DNA of 64,000 nucleotides from Schmidtea nova (lineage: Eukaryota). This document shows, piece by piece, positions 9,501 through 63,641 of this stretch. The stretch lies in contig CM097882.1 of the NCBI GenBank assembly GCA_044892505.1, positions 216,008,001 through 216,072,000 of the forward strand, written 5' to 3'. The stretch's first letter is position 1; each line of letters starts with the position of its first letter. The position numbers and the translations under genes are program-made. Below the pieces are notes generated by a model. The model worked only from the letters and a program-made list of their open reading frames with translations, searched no databases and had not been told where the DNA came from.

Positions 9501-10399
9501 TATTTTTTCTTTCGAAAATTAATGAATAGGGCACGTTTACTGGTTTAATATAAACAAATAAAAATATTGCACGAAACGCATATCATGCATTAAAGTACCA
9601 TATAGACAACACATTTAACGTCGTGGCTAGTTGAGAAAACCAGTAGGAAGGTATAAGTCTTCTCAGATAACCGAAATCCTTGAAAGGGTTAACTCATTTA
9701 ATTTTTGAAAATGTAATGTCAAATGAGTTTTGTGTTTTTTGGAAAGTTTATTGATTTCACGCTATCACCACGAATGTTTATTTTTATATTGTTTATACAT
9801 GAAGTTGAAATATGTAAATGCATTGAATTTTCTCTTTAGATTTGCACAACTTCATCTTGCTCATGTTTTTAATACATACGTGTTTCAATAGAAGGACTGA
9901 AGTATCACCAATAATTATAAGGTCTACTATATTTGTATAGATGAATAATTGCTGACGAAGTTTAGTAATTTTTGGTTGGTTTATTTTTTCAATAGTTTTA
10001 ACAACCATTTAATATTTATTCAATAAAAAAATTTTATTTTGGCTATTTGAAAATAAAAAAATTCGTTACATAACAGTTTTCTACTTATAGGACTTATTTG
10101 CTTAACTTCCACATATTTCATTAAATCTTTCTATAGGCTTTAAGAACTTTGCCTCTAAAGCTTCTTTAATATCTTCGTTTTTAATGATTTCCGCTTACCC
10201 AGAGTACTCTTTATTGACCAAGTGGAAATCTCTAGTAGAAAATTTGCTGAATCACTTCTGTGGTGCTCGATTACTTACATCAGTGTTTCCCAACCTGGGC
10301 GATTTGAAATTTTAGGTGGGGGATTTTTTTGCCATGTTGTTTTTGTATATGTCCACCTTTTTGCCACTGTTTTCCTTAAATTCTAGAATCTAGATACTA

Positions 10400-10464
<65 letters not shown>

Positions 10465-13400
10465 CACAGACACACACAAACAAGTCCTATAAATGACCTA
10501 CATCTGTATACCTCTGCCCTCAATTTGTCAATCTTTATAGTATAACAATATATGACGCACACACATCATCTTACATGTAGTTACATCTACTCTACCCCAG
10601 TTTTAGCAATTGAAAATGGGCGATAATCGTAAAGGGGTTGGGAAACGCTGACTTACAGCATGATCTCCGAAAACGGTACACTGTCTCGGCACCTTTTGAG
10701 TCAAGTTTGTATTTAGAAAGTAAACAATCTTGAATTAAAATGTTATTTGTTGGCATTAAATTATTCTGAAAGGTAACATGTTGATTCCACTAGAACAATT
10801 CCACTAGGCACTATTTTACTCGGATAATTCCACTAGACACAATTCCACTAGGTAACAAGGGTTAGGGTTAGGATTAGGGGGTTAGGGTTGTTACCAATTG
10901 TTACTAGTCTAGTTGAATTGCGCTAGTGGAATTGTGTCTGGTGGAATTGTTTCTAGTGGAATTATGTCTAGTGGAATTATGTCTAGTGGAATTATGCTAG
11001 TGGAATTGTGCTATTGGAATTGTACTATTGGAATTGTGCTAGTGGAATTGTGATATTGGAATTGTGCTATTGGAATTGTGTTTAGTGGAATTGTTTCTAG
11101 TGGAATTGTGTCTAGTGGAATTGTGCTAGTGGAATTGTGCTAGTGGAATTATGCTAGTGGAATTGTGTCTAGTGTAATTGTGCTATTGGAATTGTGCTAT
11201 TGGAATTGTGCTATTGGAATTGTGTTTAGTGGAATTGTTTCTAGTGGAATTGTTTCTAGTGGAATTGTTTCTAGTGGAATTGTTTCTAGTGGAATTGTGT
11301 CTAGTGGAATTGTTTCTAGTGGAATTATGTCTAGTGGAACTGTGTCTAGTGGAATTGTGCTATTGGAATTGTGCTAGTGGAATTGTGCTATTGGAATTGT
11401 GCTATTGGAATTGTGTTTAGTGGAATTGTGCTAGTGGAATTATGCTAGTGGAATTGTGTCTAGTGGAATTATGCTAGTGGAATTGTCTTTAGTGGAATTG
11501 TTTCTAGTGGAATTGTTTCTAGTGGAATTGTGTCTAGTGGAATTGTGCTATTGGAATTGTGCTATTGGAATTGTGTCTAGTGGAATTGTGTCTAGTGGAA
11601 TTATGCTAGTGGAATTGTGTTTAGTGGAATTGTTTCTAGTGGAATTGTTTCTAGTGTAATTGTGCTATTGGAATTATGCTATTGGAATTGTGCTAGTGGA
11701 ATTGTGCTATTGGAATGAGCCTAAAATCTTCTGAAATATCAATTAAACAATTCTCGTCAAATTTGAATGTATCATATAAGAGGAATAAGTAGATAATACA
11801 CGTGGTATCATTAACAACAATCAAAAAATCTTCATGTCTGTTTATATTCAAAAATCACACGAACATTTTATTTGTAAAATTGCAAAGCAACATATATGAC
11901 TATAATTACGAAACTACAACATTGCGGGAAATTTTGTATAGCTTTCAAAATTCTTATAAAATCACTGATTAAAGAGATTTTCGGTCAATAGTAATTAATG
12001 TTGAATATTAAGGATATAGAGACAACTACCAACAAAATTGGGAAATATGCGAACGCTATGAATAGTGTCCATTTTCCAAGGCCCTTGCCCAACATATAAA
12101 CTTATATGCACATTTTTAAATTCAAACTATATTCAAAATAAAAAGAAAGATGTTGCAATAAATCCCAGTTATAAGATAAACCAAAGAAAAAATTTTAAAA
12201 AGCATAATTAGAAAATAATAATGTGCAATTATGTGTAATTTTGTGATAGTATCAAAATTAAATTATTAGATAATTTATTAAATATGTTAAATTTAAATTA
12301 AATTCATCTTACTTTTGGATGAAAGACAACTGTTGGAACTGTATCATTATGATTAAATATACAAAGACATTCTCTACGACTAATATGCCACAATCGAACT
12401 TGTCTGTCCATGCTTGTTACTAATAAGAAAAGATTTTTTGACCAAACTAAATCTGTTATAACTCCTTCATGACCTCGATAAATTATTAGCGGTTTTGATC
12501 GAAATGGAGTTCTTCTTCCTTGCTCAATGTCATCATCGCCAGAACTACATGTACTTCCACAACCCTTTGAAAATGATATCATAGTTAGAATAGAAATAAA
12601 AATGCATAAAAATGAATATATAAAACTATCAATTTAAAACTTCACCAAATAAATCAAGCAAAAGTGCATAAATAAAACTCATTAAAATATTTTGTTTGAA
12701 AATAATGTGATGTAAATTAATTTATTTTAAGTCACGGTTTCTCAAACAAGAAGGAATTTTAACTTTGTTCGTGTTTAACTATTCGTGACAATAGGTTTAG
12801 CAAATGTCCGTTGGATGAAAAAGATAATGTAAAAAGGAGGCTCGTTTGATTTTAGAACCGATGCTAATACAAGAGTATCGGTGTGTAGATGCAATAACAA
12901 CAGTGTAGTAAATCCACGTTCAAATACAATGGGTGTCAAACCTGCTGGTCAGGCGTCACACTGTTTGTCAGTGACTAAAGCTAGAATTCAAATACATCAG
13001 CCAAAAATTGTGAAAGCATATAATGAACACATGAGAGGTAGAACGAAGGGACTAAATTATATAAAAATATAGATATATCAATATATGTGGTATGTCTGTT
13101 TTTTCACTTATCTTATTGATGTTACAGTGAATGATGCATGGTAGTTGCATAGAATATGTGCAGACAAAAGGGCGATGGATCTTTAAATCTTTCGCAGGAG
13201 AATAGTCAGATTTTATTTAGAGCGATATAGCAATTTACTACATCCAGGACAATGAGGGAGGCCTCAACAAAAGTCTGAGAGAAGCTGATTTGATATGTAT
13301 ACACAATGAATAATTCCCCAAGAAAAACAGACTCACTGTACCCTTTGTCATTTGAAAGCCACAAGTAAATGTGAAAATAAGAAACAATGGGCTTCATGTT

Positions 13401-16400
13401 ACGTGTTTTAAAGCTTATAGTGTTAAATACATGCAACTGAAATTTAAACATGTATGTAATGCATTTTCATAGTGTAGTACATATAGTATACTTCATAATT
13501 CATTACTAAATTATGATTTGTTGAATTAAACTGTGTTCTCATGTACATAGGCATTTTTAACCAAATCCTTAGTTATTCTAAAATCGGTTAAAAATAGAAC
13601 CTTCGGCATTTGATTAAAATATCATAATCAAAATACTTTTACAATGTAGAAATATGATCAACAATTTTTTGCATATTTCCCGAAAACGTGTGGAAAACAC
13701 AGAATCATGTATATATTCAATATGATAAATAAAACATGACAAAATAGTTAGTAAATTGCATAATTTGACCAACTTTATATTAAAATAATGTCCGTGAAAA
13801 TCGTGTAAACTTATAAGTTGATTAGCAATACTGCCGTTTTGTTAAGGTTTTATACACTGACATAAAATTTAACAATAATTCGCCATTCAAAGTTAAAGAA
13901 AACAGCAATAGAACTTTTTACTATGCATAAAAAACAGCATCATCTCCATTGTTTTAATATTTTTTTATTCATTTTGTTCGATTGTACCACAAAATTTACA
14001 AAAACTTACAAATTTTACTATAATATTGCTCGGTAGGATAACATATAAAAGTAAACTTTAAAAAGTAAATTTTAACATAAAAGTAAACTTTTATCTCAAT
14101 AACAGTGCGCATACTTCGGCCCTGTGGTTGATTATTGTTTGTAATTAGTGAAAGTATAAGCACTTAAATGTGACATTTAGTTAAAAAATCACTTTTCTGA
14201 CTATTTTTAAGTACTTGAAACAGTGATATGTTATAAAGAGCTCTCCAAGATTCGAATGAACACATTGTTAAAATATTTACAGGTAATGAATATAAATTAC
14301 CAAACAAGTTCACAATTATGTTGTGTTCAATTTAGGAAATAGATATGTATGTGTTTGAATAATATGCATCGATATCGATACAATAAATCATTACGCAATT
14401 TCCAAATCAGATAAGTATTACCACTTCTCGATGTATGCACACATACTTATCAAGTAGCATGCAATCAAAATCACGGGAAATCAACTACGAAATACATATT
14501 AATCTAGCCACTCTCATCTTAGTTGCATCAGAGTAAAAAAACATGTTATTTTCGTTTTACAGTACTTTCTATCAAACGACAAAAAATATCAAGTGTGACC
14601 TACAAATTGTCTGCTTATGGTAGATTCAATATGGAAATGGAGTAATATTATTATTATAGATTATGCAATTGGTAAGCAGAATACCGTTTAAAATCGGTTA
14701 TCCGGAAAAAGTTTTATATACTATTTCCAGCTTAAAGTTCGTATTGTAAAAATCAATGTTATTATTTATAAGTCACATTTTAAATTTTAAAAATTAATTT
14801 TTCAATTTCTAGAATGTAGTTAAATCTGCTTTTTTATTTGTTTTAGTTTTTAATCTGTATATGATGGAGAAACCAAAAAGAAAAATATTATTAAGGAAGA
14901 AGTAGACAAATGGATAAATCAAAATTATTTTTCGAACATTATATTTTGACAGATGATAATAAAACATTACATTAGTAAACAGTGATAATTCATTGAATGA
15001 CAATGAAATTGATCCTAATGAGGTGATTATTGAAGTGTGCGCACTCTAGTTTGGTTCTGGCTTTTATGATCAACTATTATCATTTTGAATGGTCAAGTCA
15101 ATTTTTTATTGTTAATCTCCAATGCAATGTCCCCTTTGTCTATGCTTGCATTTTTATTATTGTTTTTCAATAGTGGTGAAATAATAATAAAATTTTAAAA
15201 AATCAAAACTATAGGAATTGACTTGGAAATAAGAATTTTTAAAAAATAAATAACAAATACAAAAGTATGAAAAGAAAATAGAAACAAATAAGAAAAGTTT
15301 TAAAACCTAAAAAAATAAAGAGACAAAAAGAAAATATTCGGAACTTTAAAGAAACCGGAGTAAAATTATATTATCTACCTTAGGTGTTATGGAATATTAA
15401 TGTGAATAATTTCTATCGTGTTGTTATCCTTTCATAAATAAAAGTTATTACAATAATAGTTTTGTTAGTTTTCAGTTATTTGTTAATATAACAATTCTCA
15501 TCCACTATATTCACACGCACACATCAAGACATACACAACATTCACTCCAACAGTCCCGACACCCTTTTTACAGGAGACTCTGTTGGGCTCTTCAATCTTC
15601 CACAACAACAAACTCTTACATAATCATCATACACAAACACTAATAACATTACAATTATGATAATTAAATAAAACACGAACGGGCAAGATTGGCTTTAAAA
15701 TCAGTTATTTAAGAGCAACAAAATGTTTTGAAAAAATGAATATTTTGCAAGAAAAAATAATGTCAGATCAAGTAAACAAACGAAAATTACTGAATATTTA
15801 ATTAAAAAATAAAATATTTATTTTATTATTTATTTGTTACCTTCGGATTATCCGAAATATTTATTTTTTGCTACCCTGGCCAGTCAGGATAATCACGCAT
15901 TTACTGTTCTTGGCTTTTGATTTGAGTTTGGATTTTATTAAAGGAATAGTTTTTAAAGTAATAAAAGAGGCAATAAAATTATTTCATATCTGTATCTAAG
16001 AAATAAATATAAGAACGAGTTAATGAGAGCAACAAAGTACTTTAAGAATGATATTTTACGGACGTCCGGGATTTAATTCAGTAATTGAAATTTAAAATGA
16101 ATACCGTAAATTCCGGACTATAAGTAAGACATATTTTACAAAATGACATATATAGAGCGGTTCTTTGTTATAAATGCTATAAACTGCTTTTAAACATATT
16201 CGATTTATTTTATTATAGAAATTTTCCTTTAATATTTTCAATCAATTTAATTTATTCTTTATAATCAGTTATTAAATTTAACCCATGTCTCACCAAAAGC
16301 AACACGACAATGATTTAATCAGAAAATACACAATAATATATAAAAAATTCTTTATCGGCTCAATAAGACATTATAGTGTAATATATGTAACACTATTGTG

Positions 16401-19400
16401 GATTTCAAGAAATTTAATGTTGATGCGCACTAGGGTGGTCCTTATTTTTGAAGTTGTTATTTATGATTGTCTGACCCTCTCATGTTGTTTCATATTATAA
16501 GAAACAAAATTGGGCAAAATATGAGCACAATTGAACAATATTTAAAGGATTACTGTTCTTGGCTTTTGATTTGAGTTTGGATTTTATTAAAGGAATAGTT
16601 TTTAAAGTAATAAAAGAGGCAATAAAATTATTTCATATCTGTATCTAAGAAATAAATATAAGAACGAGTTAATGAGAGCAACAAAGTACTTTAAGAATGA
16701 TATTTTACGGACGTCCGGGATTTAATTCAGTAATTGAAATTTAAAATGAATACCGTAAATTCCGGACTATAAGTAAGACATATTTTACAAAATGACATAT
16801 ATAGAGCGGTTCTTTGTTATAAATGCTATAAACTGCTTTTAAACATATTCGATTTATTTTATTATAGAAATTTTCCTTTAATATTTTCAATCAATTTAAT
16901 TTATTCTTTATAATCAGTTATTAAATTTAACCCATGTCTCACCAAAAGCAACACGACAATGATTTAATCAGAAAATACACAATAATATATAAAAAATTCT
17001 TTATCGGCTCAATAAGACATTATAGTGTAATATATGTAACACTATTGTGGATTTCAAGAAATTTAATGTTGATGCGCACTAGGGTGGTCCTTATTTTTGA
17101 AGTTGTTATTTATGATTGTCTGACCCTCTCATGTTGTTTCATATTATAAGAAACAAAATTGGGCAAAATATGAGCACAATTGAACAATATTTAAAGGATT
17201 ACTGTTCTTGGCTTTTGATTTGAGTTTGGATTTTATTAAAGGAATAGTTTTTAAAGTAATAAAAGAGGCAATAAAATTATTTCATATCTGTATCTAAGAA
17301 ATAAATATAAGAACGAGTTAATGAGAGCAACAAAGTACTTTAAGAATGATATTTTACGGACGTCCGGGATTTAATTCAGTAATTGAAATTTAAAATGAAT
17401 ACCGTAAATTCCGGACTATAAGTAAGACATATTTTACAAAATGACATATATAGAGCGGTTCTTTGTTATAAATGCTATAAACTGCTTTTAAACATATTCG
17501 ATTTATTTTATTATAGAAATTTTCCTTTAATATTTTCAATCAATTTAATTTATTCTTTATAATCAGTTATTAAATTTAACCCATGTCTCACCAAAAGCAA
17601 CACGACAATGATTTAATCAGAAAATACACAATAATATATAAAAAATTCTTTATCGGCTCAATAAGACATTATAGTGTAATATATGCAACACTATTGTGGA
17701 TTTCAAGAAATTTAATGTTGATGCGCACTAGGGTGGTCCTTATTTTTGAAGTTGTTATTTATGATTGTCTGACCCTCTCATGTTGTTTCATATTATAAGA
17801 AACAAAATTGGGCAAAATATGAGCACAATTGAACAATATTTAAAGGATTACTGTTCTTGGCTTTTGATTTGAGTTTGGATTTTATTAAAGGAATAGTTTT
17901 TAAAGTAATAAAAGAGGCAATAAAATTATTTCATATCTGTATCTAAGAAATAAATATAAGAACGAGTTAATGAGAGCAACAAAGTACTTTAAGAATGATA
18001 TTTTACGGACGTCCGGGATTTAATTCAGTAATTGAAATTTAAAATGAATACCGTAAATTCCGGACTATAAGTAAGACATATTTTACAAAATGACATATAT
18101 AGAGCGGTTCTTTGTTATAAATGCTATAAACTGCTTTTAAACATATTCGATTTATTTTATTATAGAAATTTTCCTTTAATATTTTCAATCAATTTAATTT
18201 ATTCTTTATAATCAGTTATTAAATTTAACCCATGTCTCACCAAAAGCAACACGACAATGATTTAATCAGAAAATACACAATAATATATAAAAAATTCTTT
18301 ATCGGCTCAATAAGACATTATAGTGTAATATATGTAACACTATTGTGGATTTCAAGAAATTTAATGTTGATGCGCACTAGGGTGGTCCTTATTTTTGAAG
18401 TTGTTATTTATGATTGTCTGACCCTCTCATGTTGTTTCATATTATAAGAAACAAAATTGGGCAAAATATGAGCACAATTGAACAATATTTAAAGGTAGCT
18501 CAATGAAGTTGAAGTTTATATGATAAAGCACTATGTTCGACGTTGTTCTTATTGAACTATTTACGTAAGTATTATATGTATTTCACTGTGTATTTTTTTT
18601 ACCTTACAATAACATTTGTTGAAACGAAACTGCAAAGAAATCTCAGATTTCAATAAAGCTCTAATTATTCTATGAATTTTTTAGTCTTATTTAAATAAAA
18701 AAAATGCAATCTTGAATCAAAAATGGTCAATTTTTTAATAAAAAAATAATAAATTGTTGTTCTTTTATTCGATGTTTTTTAAACGTGGCCCATGCGATTT
18801 TTTTGTGTTTTTATGTGGCCCACCGATAAAGAAATTGCTCATCCCTGTAATAGATAATTTTCTTGCTCATTTGATACATAACTGTTCTATTCACACACGT
18901 GCATCATATGAAAATATTGACAAATTAATTGGAATATTAAAAGCATTGACAATAAAAAACAAAGAAAGGCAAAAGTTATTTTCTGAAATTGGCAGTCTAT
19001 CTTCAGTAATTTAGACCAATCTTTCCAAAGTAAAACTAATTGTATACAATATTAGAGATGATGGTGCACTTGTAAGCAAGGCAAAAGAGGCATTATTAGA
19101 AACTAATTAAACGCATGATTTGGTGGTGGTTAAAAAGTTCTATGAAGATCTTATACGGATAATCTACTTGATAATCTAGAACAATGTTTCTCAACCTTTT
19201 TGACTTTCAGTCCCACATTTTTTGTTCGCAAAAATCCCAGGCCCACTTTCACATTAAAAGACACGATTTTTAAGAAATGTAACTTTATTTAACGTTCAAT
19301 GACTTCCTTGATATTGATGGCGCCCAACCAAAGTGTCCAGTTCAATCTTAAGTGATTGGTTTAGTCTAAGGCGTAGATCTCCTCGAAGCTCAATGTTTAA

Positions 19401-22440: not shown

Positions 22441-25400
22441 TTTTTTTGACCCACGAACAACATTTTACAGGAACTTATCTGGCGTATAAGTAGGTAAAAG
22501 TAAGCTCATGATGACTCATCATTTTTTCAAAATTTTTCTAAGCCCGAAAATACAAATAATGTAAGTCAAAGTCAACTCATGTTACTATGGTTACTTTATA
22601 AAGGGTTTTATAGATGGTCAAAACCTTCAAATTTTAAATTTTGGTATCATTCAATAGAAAATAATGTACTGATTACAATGGTGATGGTCAAACCATCAAG
22701 GGTTGAACCATGGTGAGTCGAAAACCTTCAGAGTCAAAATTTTCAAAAATTATTTCTAGTGTGTATTGGTATAAATTTTTGTAATGTGTGATAATGATAT
22801 TTTCAATGGTTTTCAATGGGTCAAAGCGTCGAAAAATTTATTTTTGACAAACTTATTTCAAAAGACATTTATGACGGAGTCTAAAGGCGTCATGGGTTCT
22901 TAGGTATACAAATGTCCAAGGTCAAAAAAATAAAAAAAATCATATTTCAAATTCTTTCTCAAATTTCTTAACAATGTCCAATTTCAGATATTTATACATA
23001 TATTGCAAGAGAATCAAATTCCCTAAAAATGATATATGATTTATTGCAGTAGTACTTAAGATATTAGAAAATCAAAATTCCTAAATTTTTAAAAAATTTC
23101 AAATCTTAAAAAATTAATTGAAACTTTTCTACAAATCGAATTTTAAAAATTTATATATCGTTTAAAAAGAGGAAAACTTTCTCTATAAAGTGATCTAAAC
23201 TTAAATTTTTAAAAATTTAAATACTGAAAAAAAATTTTTAATTTACTGATTTAAAAAAAAATAAATACTTATCCGATCACAATAATTTATATATTTTTGG
23301 TATAAACAAAAATTTCTCTACAAAATAATATATGAATCAGTGTATTTGCGAATAAAAACTAAAACATTATTATTATTAATATCAATATCAATAATTCCCA
23401 TAATGGATGACTATAGATCAAAATTTCTTTAAACAAGTACACAATATTTCGGCACAGCCTTTATCAAGTGCGTATTTGATAAAGGCTGTGCTGAAATATT
23501 GTGTTATTGTTTAAAGAAATTTAATTCTTACCATTATGGGAATTATTGATATTAATATTAAAAGATCAAAAGTGAAACAAAAAGATAATTATTATATTAT
23601 TATTATTATTATTTTTTTCATTTCGATGTCTTTGTACACCTTTCACTTTTATTACAATGTCTCTATGAGTGTCTCTATGCAGCTGTTTTGAAATGTCTTT
23701 GTACGCTTTGCATTTGTACTACAATATCTTTGTGACTCTTCTACTTGCGTTACCTATGTCGAATAAGTACAAAAAATTTATTGTATTATTTATTTAAATA
23801 TATCTTATTAAAGTTTCTATAATATTGTCCAACCAGTCTCAAAAATTAATGGATGTATCAATGAAAATTCTGATTTAACAAACATCGTCATATTTTCATC
23901 ATTTTCGAAATATCTTTTTCAATGTATATTTATTAAAATCACTGTATTTTTTGTGAAATTTTCAATATGATATTTGTTTATGTATGACAGAAAAATAGGT
24001 AGCAGTTATTTTGTATGCATATTTAATAAAAATAATAGCTTCAATAACCTTTTCAATGAAATATTTGGTTTATATTACCATTAGAAAACATGATTATTTT
24101 TATCTAAAATATAATAATAATTTTGTATATATTCATTTCATTTTTTTTTGTTTCTTTGTATCTGACAGTGAGTTTTGAAAACTTGTTGGAAATATTTTTT
24201 TTTTGTATTTTTTAGTTAATTTTTAAAAACTTTTGCAAAGTCATTTGTGATGTTAGAAATATTTATTTTATTTCTATTTAATAAGAGAGGTTGATGATGT
24301 CACATTTTATATTTTTATTGTAATTTTAAATATATTATTGACATAAAAAAATATTTAAAGTCTCGATGTTATCTGGAAATCTGTTATCAATTGAAGTGTA
24401 ATTTAACAAATATTCACAAGTACATTTTATCAGAATTTAAAAATATAATTTGTAAATACAAGTGCTTTTTATTTCAATAAACAAAGCAACTAAAGTTTCA
24501 TATATCAAAAATTAATTATTATATTGTTCACATCATAACGACAATAAATTTGTATAGTATTAAAAAATAATAATAATATAACCATACCAGTAACTTTCCA
24601 CAGGGAGAAAACCTCATTGCCCAAATGGCGCCCTGAAAAATAATATTTTTTATCATTAGCAATTATAATTCTATAAAGATTTTTCGATCATTTTTATTAT
24701 AATAAATATTATTTCAAAATTTACTGTATGTTCATCTTTCATTTCCTGTACTAACTTAATCTGTAAAAAATCCCGGCGACCTTTCATTCGCCTAGAAGAC
24801 CGTAACTAAGAGATAGAAAAAAGGGAAGTTAACTTAATGAAATGAAACTAGAAATTTGAAAAATTTACTCTAATGCCTCGATTTCCGACAAATTCTTCAT
24901 CTTCACTTGACGATTCTTCGTCTTGATTGAAAACTAATTGCAAATACATAGATTAAATTTAATGTATAATCCAATATAAATTATCTTTGATGTTTACGTA
25001 ATATTTGAATGAAATAATTTTCTATATTTTTTAATAATTACATGCAATATTTTATAGTGGAAAATAATAAATTATTCCCCTTGAAATAATCCCATGTCAA
25101 TGGTAATATAGATCAATAGCAGTAAGATCAAGAATTTATTCATTGACCAAAAGAATCTAATACACATTGAAAATATTTCAACAGATATAAACGTGATAGT
25201 CGAAAAATAAGAAAACAATTCAAAAAAATTGAGTTAAAATTATAAAGAGTTCCATAAAAATTTCATTTTTCTTGAGTTTTATTCAAAAGATTAAAAATTA
25301 ATTTCATCAACGTGCAAAGTTTTATTTTTAACAAAATAATATTACATACCATTCAATACAAATCAGAACATGAAATAAAGTTGGGTGATTATTTAAAGAT

Positions 25401-27368: not shown

Positions 27369-30300
27369 TTATTTATTTATGTATGTATATAAAGCATTTC
27401 CACGACAACAGTTACAATAGACATTAGAGACAGTATTCTAGGAAAAGGTGAAATTAAGCAATTCTAATCCGTACAACCGAAGGATGTGTATGCAATAACA
27501 ATAAATAAACACAAAAATACAAAGTAGGCTGTTTATAAAAAGAAAATATTTACAGCTTAGATATATTGTATGCAAATTTGCTTATATGTATTCCAATAGG
27601 AATTTTCTTTAAAAAATTTAAATCTTTAATGCTTGAAAACAACATCAAAATAATTAGTTGATGGAAAACTAAATTCAGCAAAAATATTAACAAACAGATG
27701 CAACAAATTTTACGTCTTATTTCAGAAGATTTGGTCACTTATATTATGCTGTCTGTTTCTCATTTTTAAAAGCTGAAATTTTTTTCATTAAATTTTTTAC
27801 TCAATAAAATTAAATATAAAAAAGTGACAAACAGCACTTTAAAAGAGACATCGCCAAATATTTGTGTTGAATAGTGATTGAAAAAGTTTGATACATTGTC
27901 TAATAAATCAAAATAAACTGACTCAAAAAAAGTTAAAAGGCGAAGAAAATTAATCCGTTTAATGATTAAAGTCGCAATTATAAATATCATCGCAGTTATT
28001 ATTGATTTTTAGATATCAGAAAGAGTGAAGAGTGATTTTTAAAATTAAAATTGGTCATTTGAATTTACACAATGATTTAAAGACAAACTTTAAACTTTAA
28101 ACGTTTTAAAACCAAGTCGAAAAAAAAGAGAAAAAAAGTATGTCAATAAGTAAAATATTTCGTAAGGAAAAAAAGGTTACATGTGAAATTTTGGAAACTA
28201 TAAACCAGCAGGTATCAAAAAACGATTCGATGCACTATCCTAAACGAACAAATGCTAATGGTCCGACTAACTAATTCTTTTGAAGGTTGTTATTGCAAAG
28301 AAACAAGATATAACAGGATCAAACGATGTAAAAAAATATCCAAGAAAAATGCAGCTTACAAGTAGAGATTATTAACGTATAAAATTCTCAGTTAAATCTA
28401 ATAATTTATAAACAAATGAGCCGTTTTTATTGAGGAATTTAAGATTTGCGATTGAACTAAGAAATATTGCCAAGCATTAATAAATGTCTGAAATGCATGT
28501 GGAGATATAGCAATGCATTGACACTGTCTTTATAAATTCGAAAAGAAGACACCACCGATAAACTAAAGTAATAATTTTTAAAGTTGATCTCATATCACTT
28601 TCAATGAAAACCCGATCTAATATACATTCATAACACAGCAAAACTTTATGGGTAACATAATAATATTCAATATATATAAATGATTTTTAAATTACGACAT
28701 ATTTTAAAATAGCTAAATAATTCAAATAAACAAATCTCAAGTCGAAATACAACATGTTAATCAGTCAACATTTCGTATTAGGAATGTGAAAGAAAAACTA
28801 ATTCAAAATTCAAAACAGAGCACTTTTATTGATTGATTTAAATGCAAATAAACGTGAATTCTGTGTGAATTCATTAGAACAGAGCGTTCTCAATAACTAG
28901 AACAATTGTGTAACAATTGTTTTCATTCATCTTCATTGTTTTCAGATTATCGATTAATATTTTGCTTTTTATTTAACAAATATTGATTTATTGTTTAAAA
29001 AGAAATTGAAAATGTATTAATGGTGATATAAATAATTTATTCACCAATTAAAAAAATTACTAATTTTACTAATTTTTAGGTATTTTGTGAGATTTATAAC
29101 GGCCAGGGTTAAAAACCAAGCAACTACTAGTTGTAACTAATTATCTATTAAGCCTGTCAGATGACGGCCACATTTTTAAAAATTAATTTTAAAATTATTA
29201 CATATTAATATCAATTGTAAATAATTATATAATTTATCTTAAAAATAATGCAAAAGTACGGACGGAAAAATATATATTTTAAGTTGTCCGGAATGAAATG
29301 CCCGATAAATGGATTATAATTCAAGTCGTACAAATATATTTAAGCATTTATTATATAATCAAAATATGATCCATCAATATTAATAATCTCTTGCCATCGT
29401 TGCAGGAGCTTTTCTATATATTCTTTAAAATAGATCTCATGTCTGAAGTCCAAGAAAGTGATAACTGACGAATTTATGTCATTCCAAATCTTTGAACGTC
29501 ATGCCCTTGATATAAAGATTTAAATGTCTAAATAAGTGGAAATCAATTGGTGATAGATCGGGTGAGTAAGGTGGATGCGGTAAAACTTCAAATCCTAAGT
29601 CGTCTAATTTTTTTACAGTGACTTTCGATACGTGAGGCCTGGCGTTATCATGCAGGATAATTGGACCTTTTCTATTTCCAATTGCAGGGTGACTAGTGGG
29701 GAGTGTTTCATGCAATTTTTCTAGTTCTACACAGTATCGTTCAGAATTGATTGTTGTACCCATTTTCAGGAAACAATAATATATTACACCATACATAGAC
29801 CACCAGACTGAGAGCATGACTTTCTTTTGGTGAAGTTCCTGTTATAGGAAACTGATTTAAGCATTGATGCTTATCCAATCATTCTCCTGACCGCTTAAGA
29901 TTATCATATTGAATCCATTTTTCATTGAAAGTAATAATATTATTAAGAAAAGAGGACTTTCGATGTAGTGCTTGAGGAGATGAGCAAGTTTTTAATCTGT
30001 TAAATTTCTGCAATTCAGTCAATTCACGTGGGACCCATTTTGGAGCTTTTTGACCTTACCAGTTGTCTTTAAATTGTCATGAAATGTTGTTTTTGAGACA
30101 TACCGATCTATAGCAAGTTCTCAAAAAGATTTTGTTGAATTCTGAACAACAGTTTGACGTAAATCTTCCTCCGTCAGCTTGATATTTGGTCTATCGCAAG
30201 GCATATTTTCGAGATTAATTTCTCCATCGTCAAATTTTTAAACCAACGCTTAATAGGTCTTTCATTAACTGTATCGCTCCCAAAAGCATTATTAATATTC

Positions 30301-34480: not shown

Positions 34481-37400
34481 CCAATGTATGTTTGTTTGTT
34501 TGTGTGTAACGCAGTTTTTGCTAACTCATAACTTTTTCATTTCTTAAGATAGAAAGGTCAAACCAAGTGTTTTAAAGATCTTTTCAAAAACTTTTCAACA
34601 GTGTATAGTACGTTTTATCTCATTAGCAATTTTGATGAATTTTTTTACGTGACAGTTTTTGTTGACATTTTTTTATTATACATCTGTCATTTGAAATAAT
34701 AGAAAGCTCAAACAAAAAGTATTATAAGCGTCTTTTCAAAAGCTGTCCAGCGATGTATAAAACTACTTTCTACTTTAAAAATTAGATTTGTCTACGTGAA
34801 ATTAAAATGATAGAGAAAATGTAGCTTTTCGAAAAAAAATATTTTTGATTTTATTTCAGCTGAAATATTTATTTCGAAAAATTCCGTCATTTTTGACGGG
34901 TAACACACTAGTGTATATATATATATATATATAAATTATAGAATGATATATATATATCGTTAAATGGAGATATTTTCTAAATTGTTAAATTATATAAATG
35001 AATTTTTATACCCTTTCCTAATTCAATATAATATAATCAGATAGATATTGACGCTTCCCGATAAATATACCTATTTGTGACAGATCTAGTCACATATATT
35101 CAATTTACATATGAGCTTACAATAGTGAGCTAATAACTTGTTGGTGTACTTTTTATTAAAGTACAAAAAATGCATAAAGAATAACTGAATAATGAACATT
35201 TAAGTTGCGAGTTCTGTGATTTCATCATTGATGAAATAAATTCTGAGTTATAAAAATAATTATTACTCGAGTGCCTAGATAATTTTGTAAACAAATTATT
35301 AAATTCTTTTTCTTTATTATTTTCTTTGTACAAATCATCAATTATAACTACATCTCCCTTGAGTACTCGTTTTGACCAATCTTTATCAAAACCTTTGATT
35401 ATTTTCATTTTTTAAAAATTCTTATTGTGTTAAGTTGTGTTCAGTTTCAAAATCCCGATGCCAGTAAATTTTGGTAAACTTTTCAACAAACAGATTAGTT
35501 TGTAGTAACCTACACACAAAAAGTGTTTTGCCACTACCAATAGGTCCAACAATTTGATAGACTACATCATTTCGAAATTACATTTCTAATTTAAAATACA
35601 AAAACAATGTTTATATGTCAAATAAACTCGTTAAATGTTTGTTAGTATAAAATGTCATAGAGATTTTATGCTGAATCTAATGATATAAAATATATTTTGA
35701 TAACTCTATATTTAAATAGGTTGAAAAATATTTTATGTGAGCGATCTAGCCCAAGTCATTTATCCATAAACTGTATATATTATGTAATATTTATAGTTTA
35801 CCCAAAAATACATGATGCTTTATTTATTATGTAATCATTTTGTAATAATGTATATATCACACAAACATTACGTGATACTTTAGATATTGTGTAATAACTT
35901 ATATATTAAGGAATGGTTTAGTTGGTATTATCAAATACTTTATATATTATGTAATACTTCATGAACTGTGTTATTAAAAAACTTATGTAATACTTTATGT
36001 TTTGTGTAATTTTTACGTAACATTTTTTAAAAAATTCATAACACTTTAATTCTTATGTGCTTGATGATATAATACTAAATGTAATAATTTTTTTTCATAA
36101 TTTTTTAAAAAAATATAATTAATTAACTTTTTTTCCAAAAATTAAAAAAATGCTCAGAATTCAATAATTTTTATACCAATCAACTGAGAATTGAATGGCT
36201 AACAAAAAAGTGCCAAAAAGTAAAAACATGAAAAATTGGTCTCCAATCAATTTTACACGAAAAAACCTTACTTGTGTAAAATGGTTAGAATTCAATAATT
36301 TTTACATCAAAATAATCAGAATTTAACGCTCAACAATAAAAATGACATAAACAAAGTATTTTAAAAATAAATCTTTATTTAAATAAATCTTCTTTATCAC
36401 CTAAAAGACTGTAACACTTTGGCCTAAGAAACAACCACTTCTCGTACTTGAATCCTTTATTCTCGTCTTTGAATTTACCAATGACGGAATCTAGGTTTTA
36501 CGAGTACAAGGTATGATTTGGGTCATAAATCCAAGTATCTAATAACCTATCCCTAACCATAGCAGACAAAAGAATATCGAACTTACAATTCTTAACTTCC
36601 ATGAAGAAAGAATCTGTATCACCAGCGACTTTACCAATCTCACAGTTGAATTGTGACATATAAACTATAAAAAACCACAAAAAATAAAAAGTATTTAAAA
36701 AAAAATATTTATTAATATAAATCTTCGGCAATAACTTTGTATTGTAAAGGTCATCATAGTATGCCTTTCGCATTTTAGCAACCAAAATATGTAGAGATTG
36801 TTGTCTTTTGGAATCGTGGCAACAAGCACATCCATTGGTACATGAAATTCGCATTGATTCCTTACAAACAACGCAATTTTCGACGCACTTGACGCCAACC
36901 CCAAGCATTATATTGATCCTCGATATTGATTCTTCGATATTGATCCCCGTGTATTGGTATATTTTGTGTACCATAAAACTCGGGGACACAATAATCGAGA
37001 TTACTTTTAATCTTTGGGTCTTTAATTCTTGGATCTTCTTGAGAATTACTTCAAGCAAAAAACTAAAAGAATAAATCAATATAAAAATTAAAATACTCTT
37101 ACTTTTAAACATTTTCAAATTTGCATAATCAATGAATAACAATTAATACAAACAAAATTTATTTAATTAATTAATGTATTTATTTCATTAGTTATATTTT
37201 CCACATAATTTTTAAAATCGAAAGTTTTTATTCCAAGCATAACAACTTTTTCGCTGCCAAAGAGATTGACACATACTGGATCAAATTTCTGTAGGCGTAA
37301 TGCAGGGAATATTTTGGGTTCAAACCAACAACATTTCTTTTGTAATTCATATAAATTATTACATTTGCCGACATTGACCGTCATTGACCGTCACGGTAAT

Positions 37401-40105
37401 TGATTGAATCTAAATTTTTAATCTTGAAATTCAAATCCCCGGCTTTAACGGTTGCTTGCATCCCATTACCCGAAACTTGCCAGATCTGAGGAAGATGATG
37501 GGGAGTTGCCGCTTCTGTTAACAACTTGTTTCGCTTTGCCACTCGGTAACATCATGCCGGGAACTAAACATTTACCTTTATAATTGATGTTGCTTAACAT
37601 CTTTGATTAATTAAACAAATATAAACGATATAAATAATTAATTTATTAAGAAATGGAATTAAGAAATGATGCCGTTTCAAATAGTAGGACCTAGCGGGAG
37701 TGGGAAAAACTTGTTTGTATGTAAATTATTACTATCAAAAATGTTTAAATCGAAATTCAATAAAATGTATTGGTATCGTGGAGCTGATGAAGAACATGGA
37801 TTGACTCAAGATCAGTTTTGTAAATTAAAAATGACTATCATAAAAGGTTTTGACAAAAATTGATCATGTAGATTACAACAAGGTGATGTTATAATTATCG
37901 ATGATTTGTATCAGAAAGCCAATAAAGAAAAAGATTTCAACAATTTATTTACAAAAATTAGGAGACACTTGGGTGTCACAGTTACCTAAAAGATTAAATA
38001 ATTCAAAGAAAGATACACAGAAATAGTTATCTGATCAATTAGCACATAGTTTAAATAAAACAATGTTGAAAAGATTTCCTACGCGTAGTTAAAAAACAAT
38101 TGGTGTTATTGATTTATGGCAAATGGATTTAATGGAAATGATACCTTTTTCAAAAATAAATAATGAATACAAGTATATTTTGACTTGTATTGATGTGTTT
38201 ATTCGCTATGCACGTGCAGTTCCAGCAAAAACTAAATCTACAAATGAAATGGCTGGAGCTATAAAAACTTTAATTGCAGATGAGCAACCTCGAAATTTAC
38301 AAACTGATTTGGGTAAGATTTTAATTTAATTTAATTTAAAATTTAATTTTAATTTTAATCTAGGTAAAGAATTTTATAATAGTAAAGTTAAAGAAATTAT
38401 CAAGGGTATTAATCATTACTCGGTATTTTCACAATTCAATGCAGCTGTTGTTGAAAGATTCAATCGAATTCTGAGAGATAAATTGAAAAATTACTTTGTT
38501 TTTCAAGAAAATAAAACTTGGATAAATGTTTTGCTTAAATTGATTTAAATTTATAATTATTATCCCTATAAGTGAATACTAGGAAAGCGACCCATTGATG
38601 TTTATTCTACAAATAATATGGATAGTTGGTTATCTGAACAAAGAAAATAAATTTTAAAAAGCCGAAATACAGGGTCGGTGATCATGTTAGAATCAGTAAA
38701 ATCAATGGATCCCCCTTTATCAACAATTTTGACAATAATTGGAGCGATGAAGTTTCGCAAATCTTGAAAATTAATACAAATTAGAACCCGATCATGTACT
38801 TTATTACCGATTCTGAAAATAATGAAATTAGTGGGAAATTCTATGGAGAAAAATTACAAGTCATTAAAGCCCCATCAGTATTCAGAATTCAAAAGATTTT
38901 AAAAACCAGAATGGATTAGGGTAACTTTTTTGCTTTATAGAAATATACTCATCAATACATTTGGCATTAATCGTTTCGACGTTTTCATTTTGTGCATTAA
39001 AATCAAATAATTCTTCCGCAGAGAGAGCATAATTTAACGATTCACGAAATTCAGTTAAATGGTAATAAACCTTAGACGCTAACAATGCTGCTAACTTGTA
39101 TCGGAAATTTATGTCTTTATAAAAAGTTTCAATTTCTGGAATCTCTTTAGATATTTCAGGACAAAAATTTCAACGTATTCATAAGGTTTCTTTAGTGCAA
39201 ACAACCTGACTTGTGTATCTTTATCAACCAAAAAAGATAATATACTGCTTGCTGAATTAGTGACATAAAAATTACTAAAAAATACACAAAATAGTTCCAA
39301 CTTTTATTCAAGAAAATTTCAACAAAGCTCAAAACTTTTTAAAAATCTGAGCAACTTAGCAAAACTAAATTTCAGACAAAAAAACGCTCTGCCCCTCAAA
39401 CTTCAATTGGCCAATAATAACCAAATTCCAACTCACAAAATACACAAATTCCATGAGCACACAACACACATAACAGTCAGTCCACACCGGATGCACATCC
39501 ACTTCACTAACAAAAACCACGAAGACACACACCGAAAAAACAAGGAGGACCACAATAACCTCAATAAAAAAGCTAAAGAAAACGAGGCTCACATGTTGAG
39601 CCATAATTAACCACTATAGTGTAAAAATAAAAAGTGTACTTTAGAACAACCAAAATTGCACGCTGCGCCGAAAAATATATTTTCAAATTTAAAAAGTTTT
39701 CGAGCGAATTTTAAAAAGTGTGTCATATATTATCGCTAGAGGCGGGGTAGGGTCACGATAACTGGTAGTGAATTAGAAAGCTCATATCTACCTACTCACA
39801 AGCATTCAAATAATTATAAATACATCTTATAAGAATCTCAATATTACAATAGTTATAAGTTTCATATACATATATATATATTATTATTATCAATAATTCT
39901 CATAATGACTATAGATCAAAATTTTTTTTTTTATAAACAATAACACAATATTTCGGCACAGCCTTTATCAAGTACACACTTGATAAAGGCTGTGCCGAAA
40001 TATTGTGTTATTGTTTATAAAAAAAAAAATTTTGATCTATAGTCATTATGAGAATTATTGATAATAATAATAAAAAAAGATCAAAGGTGAAAAAAGATAA
40101 TTATG

Positions 40106-40187
<82 letters not shown>

Positions 40188-49155: not shown

Positions 49156-49960
49156 ATTATTTAATTTTTTTTTAATTTTTTTAAAAATATTTTATTAAGA
49201 AGGCGCGACCACTTGAAGTTACTGTGGCTCCTATCAGTATACAAAACATTAGTTTAACTATTTTGTTGTCCATCACTATGTAACGTTGGTAATGCAGCAA
49301 ATGGTTGGATCTCCGCAAACAGCGAGCGTCGAAATATTCGAAACTGTGATTGACCGGACATCACAGTGGGTTCAAGGGCTACCGACCGAAGGTTTAATGT
49401 CTAATTTTGTCCCAAATTTAGCAATAAATATCAAAAGAATTTATTTTTACATCAACATGGGTTTTTCCGAACATTGAAACACTAACTATACAAATTCATG
49501 TAAGGATCCATTTCAAATAAATGTAGCATAACAATAAGCACAACAAAATTATTAAAATCATATGTCACCACCGTATCAGAGTATTCAGTTTAATAATATT
49601 GTCCATTGGATACAAAGAATTTAATATATTAATATAAGAATTAATATAAGAATTTAAAATAAGAATTTAATATAAGAATTTAAAATTGATTTATTTAATT
49701 TGTGATTAGTTATCGTTTTACATATTTACGCGCATTGATTTTTACATTAAAACAAAACGAAAATATAAAATATAGTAACTACAAGAGTTACTTACATTCG
49801 GGTCATGCAAAATTTAATCGTAGTTTTACTTCACGAGCCCCTCGGTCAGATCGGGTGTTAAATCAATCGATTAGCGGCGTTAACAACGAATATTACTCTA
49901 ATTGTAGTCATTAAAACAGTTATTAAAACAATTATTATTGTAGTCATTTAAAACAGTTAT

Positions 49961-50318
49961 TGATCTTTTTTTATTATTACCAATAATTGTATTATCAATA
50001 ATTCTCATAATGATGACTATAGATCAAAATATTTTTATAAACAATAACACAATATTTCGGCACAGCTTTTATCAAGTGTGTATTAAAACAATTTTGATCT
50101 ATAGTCATCATTATGAGAATTATTGATAATAATAATTTTAAAGGTATTATTATCAATAATTCTCATAATGATGACTATAGATCAAAATTGTTTTAATACA
50201 CACTTGATAAAAGCTGTGCCGAAATATTGTGTTATTGTTTATAAAAATATTTTGATCTATAGTCATCATTATGAGAATTATTGATAATACAATTATTGGT
50301 AATAATAAAAAAAGATCA
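49961..50318. repeat. 358-bp near-perfect palindrome made of two head-to-head family-P MITE derivatives
   Basis: Arms symmetric about 50139/50140 with a roughly 10-nt spacer. Each arm carries its own GACTATAGATC inverted repeat. Confidence 0.9.
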
Positions 50319-50789
50319 AAGGTGAAAAAAGATAATTATGATAATTTTAAAGGTCATGTGAAAAAAGAAGGTCGGCACTGCCGGCAAACAAACCTCACAT
50401 GGATCCAAAAAAACATCAAAAAGTTTGGAACTCAATCACATGCCAAATACGACTGTCAATTCAGTTGAACGGTTAATATAATTATCATTTATCTAATCAA
50501 TTTTAATTTTAGAAAATTTCGAAGAGAAATGCGTAGGAATCCGGCGTTGTCAGGGCTGCAAGAAAGTCATTGTTGGAGGTGTCCATACTGATGATATTAA
50601 AATTGATCGTTTGTGATTTTGTATTATCTATTAAAGATTTTTAATTCATATTTTACTTTTTTGTTTGACGGAGAGTATGTTGCAGTTTGGTGTTTATTCA
50701 TAGATTAAAAAATTCAATTTAATTTGCGGGGGTGGTAAATTTGGGCCAGGGTGGATTTCCTTAGGTGCTATGATCGAAATAAGGGCAGT

Positions 50790-60519: not shown

Positions 60520-62789
60520 GATTTTTACAACTTAAATGTGCTTTATTGGTTAATATTTAAACAATATTTAAATCGTTTTTTTTAATTTCCGTAAAATTTT
60601 TCTCATAATATTAATTAAGGAAATTTTATTTTTTAGGGAAATTACTATAATTACATTAAAAATTTTTATCTAAATTTTAAAATGTAATTAGTTATTGTAT
60701 TTTTTAAATTTTTATATCTAAGTTAAAAAATTGAAAACTTGTTCTAGAATAAATTGCAAAAGTATAAATTGCAAAATATACTTTTTATCAAAATGAACTT
60801 TTTAAATTAAACTATTTTGTAATAAAAACTAATTAGAATTTAATTAATAAAATAGTAACTAATATGATATATAATATTAAATTATTATTTAAACAAATTA
60901 TTTTTAATTTTTATATCTTAATTACAAATTAATTTTACCTTCAATAACAAAATCCAAAAAATATATAATTTTTCCCTATTTTTGTCTAATCTATCTAAAA
61001 AGGTTTTTAATGTAATAATGTTTTTCGTGGATCTAATTTTAATGTCTTCCTTCTAAAATAGCGAAACCTCGCAATTTTATAAAATTTTGAAGTACCAAAA
61101 GTCAAGAGATACATAACTACCTACTGCAAAACAGTGGAGTTCTAGATAATTTCGATGATATTATGTCCTGGGGTTATTCAGAAACGCACGAAATGCAAAA
61201 GTAATAGAAATTTCAAAAAGGGTAAAAATCAAAAATTTTAACCGGAAATTGGTAATCGGTGATATAAAATGTATGTACATGAACTTTCTCGGGAATATAG
61301 AAATAACCCTGACTGTTGCTTTGGCTCTATTCCTCAACAACCCTACATATAAACCTAGCAAAAACCCTTCTTGTTATCCGTCACCTAGTAACGTTGGAAA
61401 TGGAACAAGTCAGTGGACATCCGTAAAAAAAGAGCTTAGAATGAGTCAAAACTTCTATTGAACGAATGTCTCGAGTGTGTTCAAAGGCAACCGATAGAAG
61501 GTATAATGCCCATTTTCGTCCCGCACTTAATCTCTCTCATATTTTTCACTTAAATTCCTTTGATAATTAAAATAAAATCTATACAAAAGTTGTTAATTAA
61601 TTAATTAATTAATAAATAAATATTATTAATTAATTTGATAAATATTGCACATAAATTTTATTACAAGACCCTTTAAATGAAATATAAATTGAATGTGCCG
61701 TTAGCTAAAATACGTATGAGCTAGATGCACTTAATGATAGTAATATAAGTTATATGAATCAAATCATAATTCATACAACACACATATACGGATATATAAT
61801 TATGCAGTTACATTATTATATGGTGTTGAGTTATTACATTAAAAAAATTGTGTCCGACTAATCATTGTCAGTTATTTATAAAATCGATTTGATTTTTCGA
61901 GTTCTTCTTCAATTGTCCCAGCAATCGCGCTTCTAGTCTACGATGACTTCACGCTCGAACCGATTTACTCAGCTTGAATTTCTTAGGCTTCGCAACAGTA
62001 TCTGTAATTTTTGCCTCTTCCTAGATTCGGTTCGAGGAAATAATTTTATGTTATTACTCGACGTAGAAGGTATCAACACATTAGCCAGATCAAACTTCAC
62101 TCTTTTACGAGCTAATTGAACTTCTCGTTCTCGGATAACCAACTTTAGCGCGCGATTTCGGTCTGTCTTTCACCGTTTACAGTTATAGGAGTTGTATTTG
62201 TTTTTTTACGTTGGCAATTTAGACAGCTTTGTACCATGGTATCTCCATGGTACGACATAGCTACTTAAAATTTTCTAGACGCTCTCCTAATGACTGGTTC
62301 TCGGTCCATGATAATTTCTTTTCTTTCCACTAGTCTCACATCGTTAATCTATAAATCACTGAACATTTACACGGAACCAAATGAAGTAGTTATATTTGTT
62401 TAACTAAACTTGTATGTACAGCATTCATTAATTTTAAATTCATCCGAAGCTCCTCGTAACTCGGAAAATAGAAATTTTAGATACAAAATAAATGTAATAG
62501 TTAGCGAGTATTTTTATGATGTAGTATTGTGTCGCAAAAATGGCTAAATATTAATGGTCTTTCCTATTAATAGGTGTAGATGAAGTGGTTAATTTTATCA
62601 AAATTCAATTGAAATCCCTTATATCAGGATTTATCATAAATAAATTCGTTACATTAATTTCTATGGATGTTTACATAATTAAAATGTTACTTTAAAATGT
62701 CTTATATTAAAATATCATAAAACTTAAACATTTCTATTTCTTGCACCAGTTCAATTCGTTCATCTAAAGTCATAAGTAATGATGTCTAA

Positions 62790-63641
62790 GACAATTTAGG
62801 GATTCCATAAAAGTTCAATGGTTCCTATCGATTATGAGCTATGGCTCGAAATTGCTGGAATAAATCATTCAATAGAAACACGCCAAGTTTCAAATAAATT
62901 AACTGATAATCCATCAATGTTTCACAACCTGATTCTTCCCATATATGTAGGGTCTTTTCATATTATTTTTTTGAAACACAATCTCAGATTGGGTTTAATT
63001 CTGTTGTTGTTCCCAGAACTTCTTGACTAATGGCAAAGTTATATGGAAATATTCCTTTTGATTCTACTATAATTCCATTAAATTCGGATTTCGTAATGGA
63101 TAATTGTTCAGTATTTTCACAGCGTTAGATAAGAAGTAATTTACAAACTGTTAAGAGTCAATAAATTTTATTTATATTCCACCAATGTTTACAATAAGTG
63201 ATAGAAATGTTTCAGTGTTAAGAGGAATGCAGCTTGAATTCCAATCCAGAAAACAATTTAACTAATGTTTAAGTATATAATGTAAATCATAACCCCTCAA
63301 ATTGTGAAACATAATGGGCAATATTTCATTGATTTTCCTTGACATATTGCATTTAATACATGCTAGGCCAATATATTTTCCTGTAAAATGAACGGGATCC
63401 AGACCTTTTCTATTATCGTTTTCTGGCACAAGTAACAAATTGTATATATTTTGAAGGATTAAATTTCATCTGGCGAATGTGGCGACATTAGCTTTTTTCC
63501 TTCATTGATGTAATGTCTTAAAACAATAGAATAAGTGTGGACTGTGGAACACAGGAAATTACATAATTGATGAGTCATAAACAATAAAAATCGAACGACT
63601 TCCTTTTTTTCATTAATTTTATATATGCATGATGATGTCAT
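62790..63641 (-). pseudogene. Polinton protein-primed DNA polymerase B, N-terminal/exonuclease fragment
   Basis: CYLCQK..EKVWD.VHFTGKYIGLACIKCN, PIMFHNLRGYDLHYILK, CIPLNTETFLS, KFIDS, SKGIFPY, WEESGCETLMDYQLIYLK..LLNDLFQQFR. Multiple stops. Confidence 0.88.

What the first reader, a model, noticed from the sequence alone, without database searches (positions are those of the whole stretch)
37163..37665. A Polinton/Maverick carrying its own TBP-like gene
Seen: both TBP repeats are recognisable, the N-terminal extension is absent, the sequence is far from canonical TBP, and the gene lies head-to-head with the packaging ATPase across a 65-bp AT-rich spacer, between pPolB and integrase. Known: the canonical Polinton gene set is pPolB, integrase, ATPase, protease and capsids; TBP homologues are known from giant viruses. 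I am not aware of a described TBP in animal Polintons, but I cannot check the literature here. Inference: an element-encoded basal transcription factor or TBP decoy that could redirect Pol II to the element's TATA promoters.
Basis: partly seen in the sequence, partly recalled or inferred. Interest (0 to 1): 0.8.

Follow-up and report, generated by a model that had tools for sequence, protein, structure and literature searches.

The report
Polinton mini-TBP with own TATA box
A virus-like Polinton transposon with many copies in this animal genome carries a shrunken TATA-binding protein, and its capsid and packaging genes sit behind an unusual TATAAACA box that this protein likely reads to switch them on with the host's transcription machinery.

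Summary
Confirmed and extended. Window 37163-37600 (-) is a broken copy of a 144-residue TBP-fold gene of a Polinton. At least 150 copies lie in this genome, most of those scored with an open frame. Pfam, PDB and a pLDDT 92 model agree on TBP. The gene is under purifying selection, forms a clade apart from four host TBP loci, and sits beside Polinton core genes in 18 of 48 metagenome contigs. It is not a retrocopy. It keeps three of four DNA-kinking phenylalanines and the TFIIB-docking glutamates, but has lost the first-lobe helices bound by host regulators. TATAAAC[AG] precedes 16/17 ATPase and 9/9 capsid genes, 0/39 TBP genes and 0/51 starts of a TBP-less Polinton in the same genome. Strand counts are 101 versus 2. 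Best reading: a one-protein late-gene switch, analogous to herpesvirus vTBP; binding is untested. One paper labels a TBP in non-animal MELD viruses; my searches found no account of this family or box. The scan noted the same system on other DNA.

The parts
37163..37600 (-). Broken copy of the Polinton mini-TBP gene (frame changes near 37500 and 37390, in-frame stop 37431-37433); open copies elsewhere in the genome encode 144 aa
37601..37652 (.). 52-bp AT-rich spacer between the divergent TBP and ATPase start codons
   Evidence: 55 bp in open copy L041
37620..37627 (+). TATAAACG box, 33 nt before the ATPase ATG (candidate late promoter)
   Evidence: conserved position
37653..37984 (+). A32-like packaging ATPase, 5' part, broken; about 1 kb of the element is missing after it
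37988..39012 (+). rve integrase remnant
36738..37106 (-). Conserved cysteine-rich gene of no Pfam family, co-oriented with and downstream of TBP in all four genomic subfamilies
36390..36680 (-). 3' end of pPolB carried inside the terminal inverted repeat
35751..36680 (.). Decayed terminal inverted repeat, left end of this copy (approximate bounds)
35177..35615 (-). ATPase remnant of a second, diverged Polinton with its own TATAAACA box at 35608-35615

Best explanation
This is a broken copy of a conserved Polinton gene for a minimal TBP-fold protein that likely binds the TATAAAC[AG] box found before the element's virion genes and likely recruits host TFIIB and RNA polymerase II there, acting as an early-to-late switch. 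Shown: the fold, selection, linkage, residue pattern and the box. Inferred: the TBP gene has no box and is often behind a canonical TATA, so host TBP would make it first. Its intact C-lobe would read the 5' TATA and dock TFIIB. Its rebuilt N-lobe would accept C at position 7, which cellular TBP disfavours. Loss of N-lobe helix H2 would free it from TFIIA, TAF1, Brf and Mot1/BTAF1.
For: Fold: Pfam 50.1 bits; model pLDDT 92.5, with no helix before residue 81; VIA Z 12.2, rmsd 2.7 A over 144 residues to TBP, next unrelated row Z 6.5. Residues over 172 rows, yeast numbering: Phe at F116/F190/F207 in 169, 171 and 172; Glu at the two TFIIB positions in 156 (plus 9 Asp) and 170; no Phe at F99; new near-invariant DNA-face residues V122->Arg (171), T124->Met (171), L205->Asn (172), V71->Asn (128). 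The H2 segment is 21 residues against 34 in cellular TBPs, and 27 or fewer in 116 of 172. PMC7221094 assigns those Glu to TFIIB and H2 basic residues to TFIIA/TAF1/Brf/Mot1. Box: 16/17 ATPase starts (32-48 nt), 9/9 capsid, 8/8 orf135, 3/8 orf348, 0/39 TBP; shuffle maxima 1-3; control Polinton 0/51. 101 sites on the virion strand against 2 in 20 stretches, 122 kb. Tyr-Lys-Gln/His codons spell the box in 25 of 26 cases where about 0.54 is expected. A contig picked by its capsid alone has the TBP and 10/0 sites. Canonical TATA before 15 of 39 TBP genes, shuffle mean 5.1, max 9. PF00382 (TFIIB) gave 6 matches at 4 places in the genome, none multicopy.
Against: No binding, expression or start-site data. 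No TBP-less member of the same clade was available, so box and gene co-occur but the control is a distant Polinton group, essentially one family. In 119 kb of control stretches TATAAACA is also skewed, 13 versus 2, although none lay before the 51 starts tested. Cellular TBP has been crystallised on a 'C(-25)' TATA variant (entry title 1qn3), so host TBP may read the box weakly. The box contains a forkhead-type core (consensus recalled). Some sites lie 75-107 nt from the ATG and the integrase often has C/GATAAACA instead. Longer family members that keep an H2-length segment also exist (56 of 172), and one with context (L095) has the box, so helix loss is not tied to it. The elements compared are related, so counts are not independent.
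Confidence: 0.6

Rival explanations
1. The box is read by a host factor (host TBP, one of its divergent paralogues, or a forkhead protein), and the mini-TBP is a decoy that titrates TFIIB or otherwise dampens host transcription.
For: TFIIB-docking Glu are kept while F99 is lost. The host has four TBP-family loci, two divergent. ATAAACA matches the forkhead core (recalled). Cellular TBP can bind a C(-25) variant (title).
Against: The DNA face is not decayed but carries new near-invariant residues. The box is strand-specific, at fixed distance, needs T at position 1 (88 against 8-12) and A at 2, and GTAAACA is only 24/11. It recurs across contigs of 27-40% GC from different samples.
Confidence: 0.2
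2. The mini-TBP reads the box but only within a complex with other element proteins, as herpesvirus vTBP does, for example with the cysteine-rich neighbour gene.
For: The cysteine-rich gene follows TBP on the same strand in all four genomic subfamilies and has no box. A PC4-like gene lies beside the TBP in L099.
Against: None of the 48 family contigs from metagenomes matched that neighbour gene, and gene order around TBP varies. The TFIIB Glu, which KSHV ORF24 lacks, are kept.
Confidence: 0.13
3. The protein bends AT-rich DNA for replication, packaging or integration rather than for transcription.
For: TBP folds bend DNA; the gene often neighbours the packaging ATPase.
Against: The conserved box sits before gene starts, not at the termini, and the TFIIB loop is conserved.
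Confidence: 0.06
4. A decayed retrocopy of host TBP picked up by chance.
For: The window copy is broken.
Against: Most scored copies are open; dN/dS about 0.1-0.3 between subfamilies; family clade 100/99 apart from host genes; relatives in Polinton context elsewhere.
Confidence: 0.01

Closest known systems
Cellular TBP (Pfam PF00352)
   Same: Saddle fold over all 144 residues; Phe at F116, F190, F207; P191; the Glu-Pro-Glu TFIIB loop; Asn at N69.
   Different: No N-terminal extension; N-lobe helices H1 and H2 absent in the short form; no F99; V71, V122, T124, N159, V161 and L205 replaced by conserved Asn, Arg, Met, Ser/Thr, Thr/Ser and Asn; 21-27% identity.
Beta/gamma-herpesvirus vTBP (KSHV ORF24; PMC12529657)
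   Same: A viral TBP mimic with a more polar DNA face, paired with a variant TATA box (TATTWAA) before late structural genes.
   Different: ORF24 is 752 aa with Pol II-binding and extra DNA-binding domains, needs five other viral factors, keeps all four Phe and lacks the TFIIB Glu. This protein is 144 aa, keeps the Glu and varies the 3' end of the box.
Giant-virus (NCLDV) TBP-like proteins (PMC7221094)
   Same: Virus-encoded TBP fold whose N-lobe regulator signature is lost; BFVD hits at 9-20% identity.
   Different: Those mostly lose the TFIIB Glu and come with a viral TFIIB. Here the Glu are kept and no multicopy TFIIB was detected.
Polintons/Mavericks, adintoviruses (PMC8502044)
   Same: pPolB, rve integrase with chromodomain, A32 ATPase, C5 protease, capsid-like gene, protein X-like core gene, terminal inverted repeats.
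   Different: TBP is not in the core set. The paper has 'TBP' only as a label in figure legends on MELD viruses from non-animal datasets; I could not see the figures, so whether it is this family is unknown. No promoter box is described in the passages read.

Membership tests
TBP family (PF00352) | Two-lobed saddle fold | tested here: met
TBP family (PF00352) | Four intercalating phenylalanines | tested here: not met
   Three kept, none at F99; the N-lobe mapping rests on sequence alignment
TBP family (PF00352) | C-lobe glutamate pair for TFIIB | tested here: met
   156 and 170 of 172 rows; definition from PMC7221094 section 11
Eukaryotic TBP | N-lobe helix H2 with basic patch for TFIIA, TAF1, Brf, Mot1 | tested here: not met
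   No helix in model residues 1-80; segment 21 against 34 residues
TBP family (PF00352) | Binds and bends TATA-type DNA; binds TFIIB | not testable with these tools
   No DNA-binding assay or usable complex model
Polinton/Maverick | pPolB, rve integrase, A32 ATPase, C5 protease | tested here: met
   Pfam hits in natural copies
Polinton/Maverick | Double jelly-roll major capsid protein | tested here: met
   No direct Pfam hit; hhalign 93.9%, E 1.6e-7 over 298 columns to a PF21738 capsid
Polinton/Maverick | Long terminal inverted repeats | tested here: met
   1057-1326 nt at 94-98% in 4 of 8 family A copies compared
Polinton/Maverick | 6-bp target site duplication | not tested
   Ends were not mapped to the base
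Adintovirus | OTU-like domain at the pPolB N-terminus | not tested
   Pfam showed none on the pieces scanned; no profile or fold test was run
Herpesvirus vTBP system | Variant TATA box restricted to structural genes | tested here: met
   (by position; late timing not measured)
Herpesvirus vTBP system | Large multidomain vTBP lacking TFIIB glutamates | tested here: not met
   144 aa, glutamates kept
NCLDV TBP-TFIIB pair | Own TFIIB gene in the same genome | tested here: inconclusive
   PF00382 found 6 matches at 4 places, none multicopy; a very divergent TFIIB among the unnamed genes is not excluded
Host TBP retrocopy | Groups with a host TBP gene and evolves neutrally | tested here: not met

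The most novel reading that the evidence does not exclude
A widespread clade of Polintons runs its own early-to-late programme with a single 144-residue protein: the smallest two-lobed TBP, stripped of the host-regulator surface, re-specified for TATAAACA and plugged into host TFIIB and Pol II. It would be a natural orthogonal TBP-promoter pair, and a sign that these integrated elements are autonomous viruses that need no helper for late transcription.
Probability: 0.5. Interest if true: 0.85.

Novelty: new variant of a known kind. Interest (0 to 1): 0.72.

Why it matters
How Polintons control their virion genes is an open question, and this gives a testable factor-promoter pair. It would be a third design for viral TBP mimicry, after herpesviruses (multi-protein complex, no TFIIB site) and giant viruses (own TFIIB): keep the host TFIIB site, drop the regulator-binding helix, change the DNA code. 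The box also gives a ready marker of late genes for annotating these elements, and a minimal TBP is a natural test of which TBP parts Pol II initiation needs.

Tried and rejected
Viral contig collection: no relatives of the TBP, ATPase or capsid alignments. Sequencing runs: 4 holders from 1 study, no RNA holder listed, so expression is open. TBP-TFIIB complex prediction gave no model, so binding is open. Single-sequence fold of the long form L095 failed, pLDDT 32; whether long forms keep H1/H2 rests on alignment length only. Protein atlas gave no answer. Contexts of the database proteins could not be read; cluster look-up gave no organism names. Paper search was too loose to be useful. Searches found no account of this family or box. 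Jeong et al. (PMC10748475) and Buck et al. (10.1101/2024.03.25.586562) have no 'TBP', 'TATA' or 'promoter' in their main text. The library lacks most subscription papers and Repbase. Supplements: one file of PMC8502044 and the text-held files of PMC7221094 were searched without hits; one scanned file was not searched, figures are not held, and bioRxiv supplements are closed, so genome maps there may show this gene. dN/dS among near-identical copies was uninformative (0.06-1.2 at dS under 0.05).

Full report
Observation. The minus strand from 37600 to 37163 reads as a TBP-like protein in three pieces. The C-terminal 75 residues hit Pfam TBP below the cut-off (19.3 bits). A search of the own genome (1.25 Gb) with that piece scored 150 of 16,009 candidates; by my count 132 of the 150 lie in a 146-codon open frame. 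These are the best-scoring hits, so they are biased to intact copies. A natural open copy gives 144 aa, Pfam TBP 50.1 bits and 35 PDB matches, all TBP-containing chains. The window copy is about 85-93% identical in DNA to such copies and lacks about 1 kb between ATPase and integrase.

Element. Stretches around open copies show TBP and a cysteine-rich neighbour on one strand. On the other strand are the ATPase, protein X-like core genes, integrase with chromodomain, two paralogous 340-348 aa genes, orf135, capsid, C5 protease and pPolB. The capsid call rests on hhalign to a PF21738 capsid (93.9%). Terminal inverted repeats of 1057-1326 nt were seen in 4 of 8 family A copies compared and include the 3' end of pPolB, which explains the pPolB piece beside TBP in the window; the element is about 15 kb. 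A PF00352 search (150 scored of 14,003 candidates) returned four host TBP-family loci and at least three more element subfamilies at 55-65% identity with the same local gene order.

Spread and selection. A metagenome scan gave 57 loci: 48 of the family, 8 more cellular-like TBPs, and L099. 18 of the 48 carry Polinton core genes on the same contig, in at least three gene orders. Of 16 contigs without core genes that I examined, 12 share another gene with linked contigs. Protein searches gave 105 hits with the alignment and 67 clusters at E <= 1e-30 among 50%-identity representatives. Nei-Gojobori dN/dS between genomic subfamilies is 0.08-0.32 (many pairs near saturation, two saturated); it is 0.12 at dS 0.63 for L117/L118. 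11 of 12 metagenome pairs give 0.08-0.38, and the twelfth is near-identical (1.21). ATPase controls give 0.05-0.09. In a 51-row tree the family is one side of a 100/99 branch, apart from host and other cellular TBPs; no giant-virus TBPs were in the tree, so the donor is unknown.

Protein anatomy. The model (pLDDT 92.5) matches TBP over all 144 residues (Z 12.2, rmsd 2.7 A; Foldseek) but has no helix in residues 1-80. Yeast numbering comes from Table 1 of PMC12529657 (section 15 read), anchored for the C-lobe and by alignments to cellular TBPs for the N-lobe. Of 238 stored proteins, 171 covered the profile in one piece; with the reference that makes 172 rows. F116, F190 and F207 are kept in 169, 171 and 172 rows; F99 is absent; the two TFIIB Glu are kept in 156 and 170 rows. 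V122, T124 and L205 are replaced by near-invariant Arg, Met and Asn. PMC7221094 (sections 7, 11, 12 and passages read) ties the Glu pair to TFIIB and three H2 basic residues to TFIIA, TAF1, Brf1/2 and Mot1. It reports that giant-virus TBPs mostly lose the Glu and bring their own TFIIB. Here PF00382 found only 6 matches at 4 places.

The box. Listing sequences upstream of start codons showed TATAAACA before the ATPase. Mapped along elements it occurs about once per gene on the virion strand. Counts in non-redundant upstream regions: ATPase 16/17, capsid 9/9, orf135 8/8, orf348 3/8, TBP 0/39; 0/51 for seven genes of the second, TBP-less Polinton group of this genome. In 20 stretches (122 kb) there are 101 sites on the virion strand and 2 on the other. 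Where the box overlaps coding sequence it is kept at codon level, 25 of 26 against 0.54 expected. Single-base variants are rare except G at position 8. The whole window has 13 sites per strand. One contig fetched by capsid similarity alone has the TBP and 10/0 sites; a second, partial one has 3/0 and no TBP within its 5 kb; a third, 1.5 kb, has neither. Against: control stretches show 13 versus 2, the control is distant and one family, and the compared elements are kin.

Mechanism. The cellular consensus YWTAWADN excludes C at position 7, and the Phe pairs insert at steps 1/2 and 7/8 (PMC1935006, passages). P191 favours T at position 1 (PMC12529657), which puts the C-lobe at the 5' end; that the F99/F116 pair inserts at 7/8 is recalled. 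So the conserved lobe faces the conserved half of the box and the rebuilt lobe faces the deviant base. With a canonical TATA before 15 of 39 TBP genes and no box there, the simplest model is that host TBP makes the mini-TBP, which then nucleates TFIIB and Pol II on virion genes out of reach of H2-binding regulators. Every step after co-occurrence is inference; I put it at 0.6.

What is known. Starrett et al. [quoted passage not shown] PMC10675990 mentions TBP in non-Polinton elements (passages). PMC10748475, 10.1101/2024.03.25.586562 and PMC12220804 have no relevant mention (term searches). PMC2396422 gave one passage, not used. Searches found no description of this family or box; searches supplied the TBP and herpesvirus papers. 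The closest working model is herpesvirus vTBP with TATTWAA, but this is not a member of that system. Three earlier notes of this scan report a Polinton TBP on other DNA, two with a shared box. I saw them after finding the box and do not count them as evidence.

Verdict. A real, conserved and apparently unstudied Polinton gene with a matching candidate promoter: a new variant of viral TBP mimicry. Interest 0.72.

Noticed in passing
L099:1965-2480 and 1464-1760: A full-length two-lobe TBP (Pfam 95 bits, Phe kept at the F99 position) beside an integrase and a PC4-like gene. It branches between cellular TBPs and the mini family, and the 3.5-kb contig has no TATAAAC[AG]: a possible early stage or separate capture.
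   Followed up: partly
L061:222-719; L069:1918-3327: TBP-carrying elements also hold a ubiquitin-conjugating E2 gene (no box) and a leucine-rich-repeat gene (box 36 nt upstream).
   Followed up: partly
L108-L114: Four host TBP-family loci, two of them divergent; L110 is an uninterrupted 199-aa frame; L112 is an inverted partial duplicate near L109. They group with a Schistosoma TBP-like 2 protein (95/89), which fits a flatworm host (inferred).
   Followed up: partly
G000:C1:569597074-569630465 (L047, L048): Tandem array of five 8295-bp units, each holding the TBP-ATPase-integrase part of the element.
   Followed up: no
L158-L192: A second, unrelated Polinton group in this genome with PF21738 capsid and a phospholipase A2-like domain in the integrase frame; no TBP of its own found; TATAAACA recurs inside its post-protease genes.
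   Followed up: partly
L041:5297, L155:4578, L061:7585 and others: The box before orf135 lies 98-107 nt from the ATG, often as TATAAACAATAT, against 32-48 nt for the ATPase: a longer leader or a small intron.
   Followed up: no
upstream of TBP genes, L051-L099: ATCATAA just before the ATG and a GCATCA-type word are enriched upstream of the TBP gene; possible initiator and early element.
   Followed up: no
L193: A 12.7-kb Polinton contig filed inside a bacterial metagenome-assembled genome, probably misbinned.
   Followed up: yes
window 9693-9999 and 62714-63530: Further Polinton fragments (orf340/348-like; pPolB).
   Followed up: no
window 15901-18147; 10894-11720; 6012-6153, 23423-23595, 39870-40110, 49960-50345: A 649-bp exact tandem repeat, a 14-15-bp satellite, and a palindromic MITE-like family.
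   Followed up: no
window 29479-29841 (-); 38882-39169 (-): A mariner-like transposase fragment, and a fragment resembling proteasome subunit Rpn2 right after the integrase remnant (both resemblances recalled, not tested).
   Followed up: no
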